Positions 12,913 through 55,835 of a DNA stretch of 64,000 nt are shown one piece after another. Source of the DNA: Eledone cirrhosa (taxonomy: Eukaryota); assembly GCA_964016885.1 (NCBI GenBank), contig OZ024740.1:75888001-75952000 (forward strand), in the 5' to 3' direction. Position numbers and translations under genes: made by a program. The first letter of the stretch is position 1, and each line of letters opens with the position of its first letter. Below the pieces are notes generated by a model. It was not told where the DNA came from and made no database searches. It saw nothing but the letters and a program-made list of their open reading frames with translations.

Positions 12913-12963
12913 AGTTTCAGAAGATCCCGTTAAGGGTGAAAGCAGCGATTCTTTGCTTAAACT
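12913..12963 (+). ncRNA. Hammerhead ribozyme-like motif with variant core CAGAAGA
   Basis: Stem I AGTTT/AAACT; CAGAAGA; stem II T-CCC gttaa GGG-T; GAAA; stem III GCA..TGC; UU at the cleavage site; AATAAA ~16 nt downstream. Confidence 0.55.
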
Positions 12964-12998
12964 TTAATCTGTTATTTTAATAAATACATATATATATA

Positions 12999-13170
12999 TC
13001 ATCATCATCATCATCATCAACGTTTAACGTCCGTGTTCCACGCTTGCATGGGTTTGGACGGGGGTAGTCCCACTTGAGGCAAGAGTGATTGTCTTGCTCG
13101 CATAGGACTGTCTGGCAGGTTTTCTACAGTTGGATGCCCTTCCTAACACCAACCACATTTACAGTGTGGG
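12999..13170 (-). mobile_element. RTE family A 3' end fragment
   Basis: Matches the family A 3' UTR; TA runs on both sides. Confidence 0.9.
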
Positions 13171-14751
13171 TATATATATATACACACATATATACACATA
13201 TATACATATATATATATATATATATACACATATATACATATATATATATATATATATATATATACACATATATACATATATATATATATATATATATATA
13301 TATATACACATATATACATATATATATATATATATATATATATATACATATATATATATATATATATATATATATATATATATATATATACACATATATA
13401 TATATATATATATATACACATATATATATATATATATATATATATATACACATATATATATATATATATATATATATATATATACACATATATATATATA
13501 TATATATATATATACACATATATATATATATATATATATACACATATATATATATATATATATATACACATATATATATATATATATATATACACATATA
13601 TATATATATATATATATATACACATATATATATATATATATATACACATATATATATATATATATATATACACATATATATATATATACACATATATATA
13701 TATATATATATATATACATATATATATATATATATATATATATATATACACATATATATATATATATATATATATATATATATACACATATATATATATA
13801 TATATATATATACACATATATATATATATATATATATATATACACATATATATATATATATATATATATATACACATATATATATATATATATATATACA
13901 CATATATATATATATATACACATATATATATATATATATATATACACATATATATATATATATATATATATATATATATATATATATATATACACATATA
14001 TATATATATATATATATATATATATATATATATATATATATACACATATATATATATATATATATATATATATATATATATATATATATATATATATATA
14101 TACACATATATATATATATATATATATATATATATATATATATATATATATATATATATATATACACATATATATATATATATATATATATATATATACA
14201 CATATATATATATATATATATATATATATATATATATATATATATATATATATATATATATATATATATATATATATATACACATATATATATATATATA
14301 TATATATATATATATATATATATATATATATATATATATATATATATATACACATATATATATATATATATATATATATATATATATATATATATACACA
14401 TATATATATATATATATATATACACATATATATATATATATATATATATATATACACATATATATATATATATATATATATATATACACATATATATATA
14501 TATATATATATATATACACATATATATATATATATATATATATACACATATATATATATATATATATATATATATACACATATATATATATATATATATA
14601 TATATATACACATATATATATATATATATATATATATATACACATATATATATATATATATATATATATATACACATATATATATATATATATATATATA
14701 CACACATATATATATATATATATATATACACATATATATATATATATATAT
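13171..14751. repeat. ~1.6-kb (TA)nCA higher-order array
   Basis: Direct reading; TACACA interrupts roughly every 20-60 bp. Confidence 0.97.
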
Positions 14752-14882
14752 AATAGAATAATCGAGTATCGGAAAATCAGCTCACGAGTTTACGATAAAC
14801 AAATCCGACATGAGTGGCAGAGGGCTCAATAATTCAGATAAATCAGAGCTATAACTATCGTTAAAATACCAACACACAAAGA
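14752..14882. mobile_element. Short dispersed repeat, second copy of the left end of the 26261 element
   Basis: Near-identical to 26263-26392 (GAATAATCGAGTATCG...ATACCAACACACAAAGA). Confidence 0.8.
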
Positions 14883-15760
14883 CACATATATATATATATT
14901 TATATATATATATATATATATATATATATATATATATACATATATATATATATATATATATATATATATATATATATATATATATATATATATATATATA
15001 TACACACACATATATATATATATATACATACACACATATATATATATATATACACATATATATATATACATACACACATATATATATATATATATATATA
15101 TATATATATATACACATATATATATATATATATATATATATATATATATATATATACACATATATATATATATATATACACATATATATATATATATACA
15201 CATATATATATATATATACACATATATATATATATATATATATATATATACACATATATATATATATATATATATATATATATGTATATACACATATATA
15301 TATATATATATACACATATATATATATATATATACACATATATATATATATACACATATATATATATATATATATATATACACATATATATATATATACA
15401 CATATATATATATATATATATATATATATATATATATATATATATATATATACACACATATATATATATATACACATATATATATATATATTTATATATA
15501 TATATATACATATATATATATAGATATATACATATATATATATATATATATACATATATATATATATATACATATATATATATATATACACATATATATA
15601 TATATACACATATATATATATATACACATATATATATATATACACATATATATATATATACACATATATATATATATATACACATATATATATATATATA
15701 TACACATATATATATATATACACATATATATATATATATATATATATATATATATATATA
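14883..15760. repeat. (TA)n/CA array
   Basis: Direct reading. Confidence 0.97.
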
Positions 15761-17847
15761 CTCTTTTACCTGTTTCAGCCATCCGGCTGAGGCCATGCTG
15801 GGGCACCGCCCTTGTTGCTACACATTTTATCTCCAGCCTGTATAGGTTGGCCACTGGTGTAGGAGGGAGTTTGTTGCTGCTGCCCTTAGGTTTCCCTCGT
15901 GTCTTGCTGTGGGCTCATCCGGGATCCTGGATAACAAGGTGTCGAGATGTTTCTTAAAGACATCCACCTCCACGTCATGCAAGTCTCGCAGATGCCTCGG
16001 CAGCCTGTTGAAGAGTTGAGGGCCCTTGAATCCCAGGCTATTGCAATACCTGCTCCTTATTCTAGATGTGGAAGACGGGACCTTTGGCACCACACAGTGA
16101 CGTCCTGTTCGACGGTTGGTCCAGCTCCCAATGCCAAAGTTTGGTGCTAGTCCCTCCAGGATTTTCCACATGTAAATCACTGCGTATCTCTCCCGTCTTC
16201 GCTCCAAGGAGTAGAGGTTCAGTTCCTTCAGCCTCTCCCAGTAGCTTGTCTCCCTCATCTTGGCAATCCTCTTGGTGTAGCTTCGCTGGATTGCCTCAAG
16301 CTCTGTGGTTAGTTTGACACTATGGGGTGACCACAGCTGGGAGCAGTAGTCCAGGCGGCTTAGGACAAAAGTCCTCCACAGTGTCAACATGGTGTCTCGA
16401 TCTCTTGTAAGGAAAGTCCTCAAGATCCAGCCAGCGAATCGTCTACATGCTGTCGCCACCTTCATGATGTGTGAAGAAAAAGATGCATCATCGCTCATGT
16501 CTATGCCCAGGTCTCGTATCGATTTTGACACGGGGATATCGGTCCCTCCTGGTCCTGTGTAGCTGTGTTCCGCTATATTTGTGTTTGTGTTTGCAGGTTT
16601 GTATTGTAGGGCTTGGAATTTGCCAGCATTAAACTGCATGTTGTTTTCTTCCGCCCATCTGTATATGGCATCCAGATCCTGCTGTAAGAGGGCAGCGTCA
16701 GCCGGGTTTTTGATTGCCTGTGCTACCTTAGTGTCATCAGCATAGCTAATGAGGGATGTTGTTGCATGCACCACAGAGGGCATGTCCGAGAGAGCCACCA
16801 AAAACAGTAGTGGTCCCAGGACTGTCCCCTGAGGCACCCCACTTGTTATCGGTGTTTCCCTCGAGAGGGCCCCATTTGCTGCGACTGCCTGGCTTCTGTC
16901 CCTCAGGAAGCCATGCAGCCACTCACCTACTTTTCCAGTTATGCCGAGTCCGTGTAGTTTGTGACATATCATTCCGTGGTCGACCTTGTCAAAGGCCTTC
17001 GCAAAGTCAAGATATATCACGTCTACATGTGAGCTGTCTAGTAGCTGTCTCAGTACCCAGTCGTAGTGATGTAGCAGCTGTGTAAGGCAGCTTCTTCCTG
17101 GGCGGAAGCCATGTTGCGTGCTAGTCAGGCGGTCATTTTCTTCGAGGAAAGTGATTAGTTTCTTTCTGACGACTCGCTCCATGACCTTACTGATATGCGA
17201 CGTCAGGGAGACTGGCCTATAGTTCTTGGCCTCCGCTCTACTACCTCCTTTATGGATAGGGCATATTGTGCCTTCTTTCAGCTCCCTGGGTAGTACACCG
17301 CTAGCCAAGGAGCTTCTGAAGAGCATCTTCAGTGGAGTTGCTAAGGCCCGCTTACATATTTTTAGGAGAACTGCTGGGAATCCATCAGGTCCAGCAGCCG
17401 AGTCTGTTCTAATTTCATCAATGGCGTACACCACATCCTCCTCCGTTATGTCTATGTGGTTGATGGTTGCCATTTCTTGATGTAGTGTTGTGGCATCAAA
17501 GAACTCCTCTGGCTTCGTTATTTGCATGTGCCTCAGTGGACATGTGAAGACACTTTTGTACTGTTCGTTCAGTATTTCACATATCTCTTGGGGATTTTCG
17601 GTTAATGAACCGTCCGTGTGGAAGAGTGGTCCAATCTTGCAGTGTACTGAGGCAGTTTCTTTTGCAAATTTAAAGAAGGCCTTAGGGTTTGTTTTAATGT
17701 TTTCTATGGCCCTGTTCTCTTTCCTTGCCCTCTCATTCTCATGTGAAAGCTTGAGTGCAATCTCGGTGTCAAGTAGTGCACGTTTCAAATAGGATTCCTT
17801 CTTGTTTTGGTTTTGTTGACTATTCAACTGGTTTGAGAGTTTGAGAG
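15761..17847 (-). mobile_element. CR1/L2-group LINE, 5'-truncated, RT ORF open to stop at 15827, short 3' UTR
   Basis: [85 protein letters not shown]; tail GGCGGTGCCCCAGCATGGCC...GAAACAGGTAAAAGAG; both ends abut (TA)n. Confidence 0.92.
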
Positions 17848-18026
17848 TATATATATATATATATATATATACACATATATATATATACACATATATATAT
17901 ATACACATATATATATATATATACACATATATATATACACATATATATATATATATATACACATATATATATATATATATATATATATATATACAGATAT
18001 ATATATATATATACACAGATATATAT

Positions 18027-54952: not shown

Positions 54953-54988
54953 TCTTCTGATGAAGGACTAGCATCCGAAACGTTGAGA
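54953..54988 (+). ncRNA. Minimal Penelope-type hammerhead ribozyme
   Basis: TCTT CTGATGA A GGA ctagca TCC GAAA CG TT GAGA; the palindrome AACGTT replaces stem III. Confidence 0.78.
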
Positions 54989-55203
54989 CCCTCTTCCTGC
55001 TATATCAAGTGTTAGCCTAATATATCCCTTCCATATACTGTACCGATTGTGTTGTTATTTCTGTTTACCTTTTACATACATATATATATATATATGAAGT
55101 AATTCCGTCGGAAAAGTCCAGGAAAAAAGAGTGCTCTATGTAGGTAACAGAGCTTAATAGCTTGGTTTTTTAAAATCCAATTCAATAAATAGACCAGGAT
55201 TTT

Positions 55204-55261
55204 TTCATTCTGATGATTGAAAGCAAAACTTTTTGCTTTTAAGAAACCACTGGTAAATGGA
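55204..55261 (+). ncRNA. Type I hammerhead ribozyme with all three stems
   Basis: Stem I TTCATT/AATGGA; CTGATGA; 11-bp stem II TTGAAAGCAAA actt TTTGCTTTTAA; GAAA; stem III CC act GG; GUA cleavage triplet. Confidence 0.82.
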
Positions 55262-55408
55262 ATAATTGCCTTATGTTGTTTATTACATAACATATATATA
55301 TATATATATATATATAACACACCGAGCATTATAATAAATGTTCGGTGAATCCATACGTACATATATATGTGTGCATGTATGTATTTATATATACATACTA
55401 CTGTACGT

Positions 55409-55515
55409 CTGTATTTTGTTAGAGATGCCTACTGGCTGGAGTAGGTTTTACTATATATTTAGGTAAGGCGGGTCTTCTCTGTTACTGAGTACCGCCAAAG
55501 GTCTCGGTCCAGTGT
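55409..55515 (-). mobile_element. RTE family A internal fragment around the stop codon
   Basis: Matches 18373-18478. Confidence 0.85.
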
Positions 55516-55790
55516 TTATATATATATATAAATATCATGGTTAATTGATTTAACAGATGTTACCAAAATTCCTTTTTCTACCTAAAAATAAGTGGGTGAC
55601 AGTATTTCAAAAGTTTTTTTAAGTGTGGGGGTGAATTTGCTTTATCTCTGTTTTTGTATTAATTGTATATTTCTAAAAATAGTTTTTTTCAAAGAATATC
55701 ACTTCTTTAAAAAACCCATCAACCAATGACGTCTACCCATACTAAAAATCACGACTCTCCCCACCTACCGCATTATACCACAAGCCTGCT

Positions 55791-55835
55791 TTCCTGATGA
55801 TTTCCTTCGAATGAAACAGTTCTAGTCCTGTAGAA
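55791..55835 (+). ncRNA. Type I hammerhead ribozyme
   Basis: TTC CTGATGA T-TTC cttc GAA-T GAAA CAG ttctagtc CTG TA GAA; second copy at 27844. Confidence 0.68.

What the first reader, a model, noticed from the sequence alone, without database searches (positions are those of the whole stretch)
12913..55835. Ten sequence-diverse hammerhead ribozyme motifs scattered through the introns of one gene
Seen: motifs with core CUGANGA (one CAGAAGA), stem II, GAAA, UH and a complementary stem I (lost in the truncated 27844 copy). They lie at 12913(+), 27844(+), 28104(+), 29577(-), 31873(-), 35874(+), 36834(-), 54953(+), 55204(+) and 55791(+). Stems are unrelated in sequence yet pair in each case (about nine distinct families), which argues against chance. 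Most are in short non-coding islands near (TA)n, some followed by AATAAA. Established: Penelope-like elements (PLEs) and retrozymes carry minimal type I hammerheads whose short palindromic stem III is completed by dimerisation. Inference: a diverse population of tiny non-autonomous ribozyme-bearing retroelements colonising TA microsatellites. Seven are sense to the beta-galactosidase pre-mRNA and could cut the nascent intron.
Basis: partly seen in the sequence, partly recalled or inferred. Interest (0 to 1): 0.75.

Follow-up and report, generated by a model that had tools for sequence, protein, structure and literature searches.

The report
Penelope retrotransposon ends carrying hammerheads
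The ten hammerhead-shaped RNA motifs are real, but they are the cut-off tail ends of common protein-coding Penelope-like jumping genes, no denser in this gene than elsewhere in the genome, and most likely do not cut the gene's RNA; one very abundant young family carries a changed core letter that likely cripples its ribozyme.

Summary
All ten motifs are at the stated places, inside introns of one + strand GH35 beta-galactosidase gene; 7 pass my descriptor against 0.03 in shuffles. They are not tiny autonomous-gene-free units. Eight of the nine families run into a Penelope-like (PLE) reverse transcriptase/GIY-YIG ORF at other loci: six Hydra-type, two with a CX4CxxC linker. The window copies are 5'-truncated pLTR ends, mostly abutting (TA)n. 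The ninth (35874) is an old, decayed family with no ORF link. The window is not enriched: 7 in 64 kb against 7.8 expected from 32 other 10-kb stretches, which extrapolates to about 2.5-3.6 x 10^5 motifs genome-wide. Cutting of the pre-mRNA is untested and unlikely for most copies: helix III is dimer-type, partners are absent and several copies are damaged. Hydra PLEs with hammerheads in (TA)n are published for Octopus (PMC8557442). The oddity is the 12913 family: 17,792 matches, 96 of 100 listed with CAGAAGA (U4A). This scan noted both the PLE reading and the U4A family before, on other DNA of this genome.

The parts
12171..12986 (+). 5'-truncated 3' UTR/pLTR of a young Hydra-type PLE (family I); no coding sequence in this copy
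   Evidence: 98% identical to both pLTR regions of the full element in L096, starting about 185 nt after its stop codon
12913..12963 (+). Hammerhead-shaped motif with family-wide CAGAAGA (U4A) core; 3-bp stem II after a U-U mismatch; long helix III; predicted cut after 12958
27844..27907 (+). Family E pLTR end truncated exactly at C3, between two (TA)n tracts; no 5' stem I strand
   Evidence: 98.5-100% identical to the pLTRs of the element with an intact 758-aa ORF in L188
28016..28373 (+). Family A pLTR end (PLE with CX4CxxC linker); hammerhead 28104-28148, extra nucleotide after A9, 1-bp helix III
   Evidence: 92-95% identical to L181/L182 ends, about 130 nt after the ORF stop; 8,511 exact 35-mer matches
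29542..29829 (.). Family B fold-back insertion; hammerhead on - strand 29576-29641; the + arm holds only the 3' half of the motif plus the tail
   Evidence: 89-92% identical to the ends of the decayed Hydra-type element in L110
31725..33323 (-). Family C 3' UTR/pLTR, about 1.6 kb, interrupted at about 32240-32369 by another repeat; hammerhead 31873-31917 with 3-bp stem I
   Evidence: 91-98% identical to L195/L200/L214; ORF starts 210-260 nt after the motif in L197, L200, L201, L211, L214
35759..36001 (+). Family D, old decayed repeat; motif 35874-35920 with stem II lost in this copy; no ORF link found
   Evidence: 39 other scored copies 78-84% identical, 1272 candidates; alignment of 25
36788..37132 (-). 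Family H pLTR end; well-formed hammerhead 36834-36889 with palindromic helix III
   Evidence: 94-95% identical to both pLTRs, 3973 bp apart, of the frameshifted Hydra-type element in L097; 3,177 matches with <=1 mismatch
54894..55075 (+). Family G pLTR end (Neptune-like PLE); minimal hammerhead 54953-54988 with 4-nt palindromic helix III
   Evidence: 2,286 matches; RT and GIY-YIG fragments upstream of the motif in L230, L235, L239 and others
55093..55290 (+). Family F pLTR end with an inverted tail (55093-55161); well-formed hammerhead 55203-55262
   Evidence: 519 matches; tail runs into a decayed Hydra-type ORF in L293 and into the same ORF start in L294
55788..55923 (+). Family E sister subfamily; hammerhead 55791-55835, stem I only 3 bp in this copy
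   Evidence: 78-86% identical to L188 pLTR; shared 34-mer pattern has 19,868 matches
33522..33619 (+). Host gene exon, GH35 beta-galactosidase (BetaGal_ABD_1 part)
   Evidence: PF21317 E 3.4e-4, below curated cut-off
34912..34997 (+). Host gene exon (inferred from splice signals and open frame)
40992..41106 (+). Host gene exon (BetaGal_gal-bd positions 1-23)
   Evidence: PF21467 E 0.0099
49864..49980 (+). Host gene exon (BetaGal_gal-bd positions 24-62)
   Evidence: PF21467 E 8.3e-16
59805..59897 (+). Likely last coding exon of the host gene, which places 54953-55835 in an intron
   Evidence: only candidate in a 64-kb downstream scan; no Pfam match

Best explanation
The ten motifs are the hammerhead-bearing 3' ends of at least eight families of protein-coding Penelope-like retrotransposons plus one old decayed repeat, likely inserted one by one into (TA)n by target-primed reverse transcription that stopped early, and predicted to be mostly passive passengers of the intron. 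Shown: each family is dispersed in hundreds to tens of thousands of copies; eight continue into an RT + GIY-YIG ORF elsewhere; the layouts are the tandem, inverted and tailed ones of PLEs; density here equals genome background. Inferred from known PLE biology: the element's endonuclease nicks AT-rich DNA, reverse transcription starts just 3' of the hammerhead on uncut RNA, so the hammerhead is the first thing copied and survives even the shortest truncation. Inferred: cutting needs a second same-family copy (palindromic helix III) or the element's protein, so lone intronic copies rarely cut.
For: ORF links: I in L096/L098/L185 (pLTRs 3259 bp apart), H in L097, B in L110, E in L188 (intact 758-aa ORF, motifs 5966 bp apart), C in 4 of 20 fetched loci plus L214, A in L181-L184, G in L230/L235/L239, F in L293. 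No PLE ORF match in the window itself. Hydra motifs in I, E, H, B. Counts with reversed-pattern control 0: 17,792; 8,511; 19,868; 2,286; 519; 3,177. Background: 39 hits in 320 kb against 0-1 in 5 shuffles; window expectation 7.8 against 7 seen. (TA)5 within 200 nt downstream in 30 of 35 hits, upstream in 9 of 35, 17.8% at random positions. Stem II picked by flanks alone is more stable than its shuffles in 39 of 39 variants. Helix III inner pairs are self-complementary in 22 of 28 against 15.5 shuffled. Closed monomer helix III is unfavourable (+0.4 to +5.6 kcal/mol) or too short in 7 of 9 folded, while all 9 can self-dimerise. Copies keep the sequence 3' of the cut site, so templates were uncut there; PMC11167929 reports the same for an Anolis PLE in vitro.
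Against: Family D has no ORF link (1 weak tblastn hit in 25 loci). The 55791 subfamily is tied to a coding parent only through its sister subfamily. For F the ORF link rests on 2 loci, one decayed; F could be spread largely by deletion derivatives, and it has a 99-bp tandem array (L014). An ORF-bearing relative does not prove that each window copy came from a full-length rather than an internally deleted template. I and E have helix III that can close as a monomer (-1.9 and -1.4 kcal/mol). No cleavage or expression data were obtained. Across the whole 158-kb gene there is no sense-strand depletion (13 sense, 5 antisense), which fits inactivity but has little power.
Confidence: 0.88

Rival explanations
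1. The islands are small non-autonomous retrozyme-like elements that spread through circular RNA.
For: Most copies are short and non-coding. Tandem non-coding hammerhead arrays exist in this genome: a 99-bp array of family F (L014) and a ~520-bp array of another family in this gene. Family D has no ORF link.
Against: None of the ten is in a head-to-tail array. 5' ends vary from 0 nt to 1.6 kb upstream of the core and run into ORFs in 8 of 9 families.
Confidence: 0.08
2. The sense copies act on the host gene by cutting its nascent intron RNA, alone or in trans with transcripts of the same very abundant families.
For: Seven are sense. 55210 and 28109 have intact cores and stems. With thousands of copies per family, trans partners could exist. 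Protein-assisted cleavage is reported for one PLE hammerhead (PMC11167929).
Against: Density is background. Four of the seven sense copies are damaged (U4A, no stem I, no stem II, 3-bp stem I). Single minimal PLE hammerheads showed no cleavage in vitro (PMC4209133), and no RNA-seq ends were seen at the Anolis site. Cutting inside an intron need not block splicing (recalled).
Confidence: 0.1
3. The motifs are chance matches in AT-rich DNA.
For: Two copies have only 3-bp stem I, one has no stem II, and Rfam finds none.
Against: 7 against 0.03 in shuffles; six decoy cores give 0-1 hits each against 35 for CUGANGA in 320 kb; every motif belongs to a repeat family whose other members keep the fold.
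Confidence: 0.01

Closest known systems
Hydra-clade C-terminal EN+ Penelope-like elements, incl. Hydra-1_Obim of Octopus bimaculoides (Craig et al. 2021, PMC8557442, section 11 and Files S1, S2)
   Same: Single RT + C-terminal GIY-YIG ORF; RW[K/R], DKT, CxCX5C, CxxC and CxH motifs; 3' hammerhead; (TA)n insertion; tandem and inverted truncated copies with a tail.
   Different: At least six distinct Hydra-type families in one gene, some 3.3-6 kb long with long 3' UTRs (published ones are generally <3 kb); very high copy numbers; one family with a U4A core. No tree was built.
Minimal type I hammerheads in pLTRs of metazoan PLEs (Cervera and De la Pena 2014, PMC4209133)
   Same: Short palindromic helix III, long helix II, extra nucleotide after A9, many families per genome, mostly single copies from truncated PLEs, opposite-strand pairs 100-700 bp apart, U3-A8 variant (6 hits in 320 kb).
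   Different: Estimated 84-122 motifs per Mb here against totals of about 2,000-9,000 per genome there; families I and E have a U-U mismatch at 10.1-11.1, a 3-bp helix II and a long helix III.
Non-LTR retrozymes (Cervera and De la Pena 2020, PMC7229834; Li et al. 2026, 10.64898/2026.07.22.740005)
   Same: Type I hammerheads, PLE-related, dimer-type helix III.
   Different: Retrozymes are non-coding head-to-tail repeats; the ten are single truncated ends of coding elements. The ~520-bp array upstream in the same gene does fit that kind.
Poseidon element PAc of Anolis (Frangieh et al. 2024, PMC11167929)
   Same: AT-rich targets, tail signature, insertions made from RNA not cut at the hammerhead.
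   Different: PAc has a canonical core that cuts with protein help; family I here has A at position 4 in nearly all copies and amplified anyway.

Membership tests
Type I hammerhead ribozyme | CUGANGA ... GAAA ... UH core | tested here: met
   9 of 10 copies; 12918 has CAGAAGA (not met for family I)
Type I hammerhead ribozyme | Helices I and II, conserved as structure across variants | tested here: met
   7 of 10 copies pass the descriptor; 39 of 39 stem II variants of superfamily B picked without a pairing demand fold better than shuffles; decayed in 35881, absent strand in 27844
Type I hammerhead ribozyme | Site-specific self-cleavage | not testable with these tools
   no assay; no RNA run listed
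Minimal PLE hammerhead | Palindromic helix III/loop 3 suited to dimer formation | tested here: met
   22 of 28 inner pairs in 16 distinct sequences against 15.5 +/- 2.5 shuffled (2 of 2000 shuffles reach it); self-duplex predicted for 9 of 9 folded
Penelope-like element (EN+) | Single ORF with PLE-type RT and GIY-YIG endonuclease | tested here: met
   RT and EN motifs in ORFs linked to I, E, H, B, A, G, F; only the RT part seen for C; not found for D. Pfam gave no match for three ORF pieces tested; assignment rests on motifs and on likeness by eye to Hydra-1_Obim
Penelope-like element (EN+) | pLTRs in partial tandem, inverted 5'-truncated copies, optional tail | tested here: met
   L096, L097, L181, L188 (tandem); L098, L110, L182, L214 (inverted); tail asymmetry in F and B
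Hydra clade | RWK and DKT motifs | tested here: met
   RWR + DKT in I and E; RWR + NKT in H; DKT in C; RWK in F; region missing in the B locus
Hydra clade | CxCX5C linker; CxxC and CxH around the conserved E and N; no CCHH | tested here: met
   I, E, H, B; not examined for C and F; not met for A and G, which have CX4CxxC and CCHH-type histidines
Hydra clade | Insertion into (TA)n | tested here: met
   30 of 35 genome-sample hits have (TA)5 within 200 nt downstream against 17.8% at random; not split by clade
Hydra clade | Placement in the Hydra clade of an RT tree | not tested
   reference proteins were only seen in a paper supplement
Neptune or Nematis clade (families A, G) | CX2-5CxxC linker and CCHH endonuclease | tested here: met
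   which of the two clades was not tested, and 'Neptune-like' for G is recalled
Non-LTR retrozyme | Non-coding head-to-tail repeats, each with a hammerhead | tested here: not met
   none of the ten is in such an array; met by a different array at C1:75806660-75809081
Non-LTR retrozyme | Accumulation as circular RNA | not testable with these tools
   no RNA run listed

The most novel reading that the evidence does not exclude
One of this genome's most amplified young PLE families (family I; 17,792 exact 35-mer matches, best copies 99% identical) spread with a catalytically crippled hammerhead (U4A) whose helices are kept. This would be in vivo evidence that PLE hammerheads serve as a structural handle rather than a cutter, in a genome carrying some 3 x 10^5 hammerhead motifs, more than any per-genome figure I saw in print.
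Probability: 0.5. Interest if true: 0.55.

Novelty: new member of a known kind. Interest (0 to 1): 0.3.

Why it matters
The cluster itself is ordinary for this genome and the kind is published. Two side results have some value. First, the load: about one hammerhead motif per 8-12 kb, roughly 20-fold denser than the axolotl figure (126,247 motifs, PMC7229834; 28 Gb per the 2026 preprint; descriptors differ), so long genes likely carry many and must tolerate them. Second, family I is a natural core mutant beside sister families with canonical cores, which makes the open question of what PLE hammerheads do directly testable.

Tried and rejected
Rfam: no match at gathering score; E-value mode gave microsatellite-driven miRNA noise in the 150 of 309 rows shown and no hammerhead in 54890-55925. 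A DNA search with the 36834 island found nothing, not even itself (common words are skipped), so patterns were used. Pfam did not recognise three PLE ORF pieces. Same-strand pairs tried as full elements that held other repeats instead: L187, L190-L193, L215-L222. L223 and L011 put ORF fragments near family F but across TA or A-rich joints, so I did not count them. No second canonical hammerhead in the full family I element. No RNA holder listed for window:12300-12985; this says nothing on expression. Contigs of 4 runs laid on 12800-12985 list no other letter at 12919 at 5% or more; one run may be the source sample, so this is not counted as independent. Strand bias: 13:5 in this gene (p 0.096) falls to 8:5 when the six-copy array counts once; 0:2 in 60 kb of a paralog; no conclusion. 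Exons between C1:75861015 and window 33522 were not located, so the single-gene reading rests on domain order and strand. Lunse et al. 2017 on dimeric PLE hammerheads was not held and is recalled only; it may list core variants. Gene-specific enrichment and chance origin were rejected.
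Full report
Setting. The window is G000:C1:75888001-75952000 of a 2.996-Gb assembly. It is rich in (TA)n and RTE-like LINE ORFs. I call it octopus-like from these features, from likeness by eye of its PLE proteins to Hydra-1_Obim and from earlier AI notes; the organism was not tested.

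Observation. All ten motifs are present. My descriptor finds 7 against 0.03 in 30 local shuffles, and 4 against 0 when both stems must be >=4 bp. In 320 kb from elsewhere, 35 of 220 CUGANGA cores complete a hammerhead; six decoy cores give 0-1 each, CAGANGA gives 0 of 177 at that stringency, and the known U3-A8 covariant gives 6 of 336. Quality varies: 28109, 29633, 36884 and 55210 are well formed; 54957 is minimal; 31914 and 55794 have 3-bp stem I; 27844 starts at C3; 35881 has lost stem II; 12918 has A at position 4.

Host gene. PF01301 exons lie on + at C1:75789413-75861015, upstream of the window. Window exons at 33522, 40992 and 49864 match PF21317 and PF21467 in order, only the last above the curated cut-off. 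A likely last exon is at 59805-59897. All ten motifs are therefore intronic, seven sense. Some middle exons were not located.

Copy number. Whole-genome pattern counts, each with a reversed control of 0: family I 17,792, A 8,511, E 19,868, G 2,286, F 519, H 3,177 with one mismatch allowed; 52,153 in all, a lower bound. C had 1,695 candidates, the 39 other scored copies 94-95% identical; D 1,272 candidates at 78-84%. B was not counted; it had 23 blast hits in the 320-kb sample.

Background. In 32 stretches of 10 kb that I chose at round coordinates on 20 contigs, the descriptor found 39, 35 and 27 motifs at three stringencies against 0-1 in 5 shuffles. The window's 7 compares with 7.8 expected. 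Extrapolation gives 2.5-3.6 x 10^5 motifs; inverted pairs cluster, so the error is wider than the Poisson interval of 2.5-4.9 x 10^5. Earlier AI notes on this genome gave about 71,000 and about 400,000, so the figure depends on the descriptor.

What they are. Following pairs of copies led to coding elements. Family I: L096 and L185 hold an RT + GIY-YIG ORF between two copies 3259 bp apart, L096 with an added inverted copy; the window copy is 98% identical and begins after the stop codon. H: L097, two copies 3973 bp apart around a frameshifted ORF. E: L188, intact 758-aa ORF. B: L110, decayed ORF, 3' motif and inverted 5' copy. C: the ORF starts 210-260 nt after the motif in 4 of 20 fetched loci and in L214. 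A: L181-L184, motif about 220 nt after the stop. G: RT and endonuclease fragments upstream in many of 25 loci. F: the tail runs into a decayed ORF in L293 and the same ORF start in L294, 2 of 6 pattern hits followed up. D: no link; the aligned family shows a 5-bp stem II that this copy has lost. I, E, H and B carry the Hydra linker and endonuclease motifs, C and F the N-terminal Hydra motifs, and A and G a CX4CxxC linker with CCHH-type histidines. The window has no PLE ORF match.

Mechanism. Shown: 3' ends abut (TA)n (30 of 35 downstream, 9 of 35 upstream, 17.8% at random), 5' ends vary, and copies keep sequence beyond the predicted cut site. From the literature: PLE endonuclease cuts AT-rich DNA, reverse transcription starts inside the RNA, and hammerhead mutants insert normally in vitro (PMC11167929). 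Inferred: the hammerhead lies 30-190 nt from the 3' end, so every insertion carries it. Helix III is self-complementary beyond what the descriptor demands and is predicted unstable or too short as a monomer in 7 of 9 copies folded. Single minimal PLE hammerheads did not cut in vitro (PMC4209133). The only same-family sense pair in the window is 27844/55791, both damaged. Cutting of this pre-mRNA by the ten is therefore unlikely but untested; trans pairing or protein help cannot be excluded.

The U4A family. Of the first 100 listed matches, 96 read CAGAAGA and 4 CTGAAGA; 2 of those 4 overlap an opposite copy at an inversion joint. Among 68 copies in hand, 66 are CAGAAGA and none CTGAAGA. The full element has no other canonical hammerhead. 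Its U-U plus 3-bp helix II recurs in sister families with normal cores. Mutations in the CUGA turn gave low activity in a full pairwise scan of a type III hammerhead (PMC9901934); a natural U4C lowers activity in vitro yet supports a viroid (PMC3088659), so residual function is possible. Two earlier AI notes report this family elsewhere in this genome; the idea of a protein handle is worded there.

Comparison and novelty. Craig et al. list Hydra-1_Obim from Octopus bimaculoides with (TA)n preference and a hammerhead. Cervera and De la Pena describe many hammerhead families per genome from truncated PLEs. This is a new member of a known kind. I found no genome-wide hammerhead count for a cephalopod and no natural U4A family in searches and 84 of a library that lacks most subscription papers; a 2026 Octopus vulgaris repeat paper does not use the word ribozyme. 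The scan has noted the same reading several times.

Papers seen: PMC4209133 parts 1-2 of 4; PMC8557442 passages, section 11 and supplement search hits; 10.64898/2026.07.22.740005 parts 1-2 of 5, supplements not seen; PMC7229834 passages and section 13; PMC11167929, PMC3088659, PMC9901934, PMC13282606 passages; Lunse et al. 2017 nothing (recalled).

Verdict. Observation confirmed with two or three weaker copies; interpretation partly supported; interest 0.3.

Noticed in passing
G000:C1:75806660-75809081 (+), L275/L276; same gene, upstream of the window, in the stretch after the first PF01301 exon: Head-to-tail array of at least six intact hammerheads of another family, period 519-546 nt, no PLE ORF match, 200-N gap inside, sense to the gene, palindromic helix III. 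Retrozyme-like and dimer-competent: a better candidate for cutting this pre-mRNA than the ten.
   Followed up: partly
L014 (G000:C26:21520311-21520929): 99-bp tandem array of six family F hammerheads next to an inverted copy.
   Followed up: no
32 sampled 10-kb stretches, L109-L140: Six hammerhead folds with the U3-A8 covariant core, so canonical-core counts miss further families.
   Followed up: no
window 38123-38413: 143-bp tandem duplication whose second unit has CUGAUGA and a short stem but no GAAA after it; not a complete hammerhead.
   Followed up: no
window 27563-27722, 28580-28960, 3145-4098: Near-perfect fold-back palindromes between (TA)n tracts; the first matches sequence also seen after a family C copy in L195.
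   Followed up: no
window 7116-10238 (+), 19591-22314 (+), 4267-6702 (-), 15827-18025 (-): Long LINE-type endonuclease/RT reading frames, one of 1040 aa; many shorter fragments and a mariner-like fragment at 51868-52530 (class names recalled).
   Followed up: no
family E, first 100 matches: Many opposite-strand pairs only 4-50 nt apart, i.e. inversion points just 5' of the core, and a forward/reverse imbalance of 10,965 against 8,903 that may reflect large arrays.
   Followed up: no
G000:C1:311.56-312.21 Mb (-): One or more paralogous GH35 genes; the PF01301 matches span 640 kb.
   Followed up: partly
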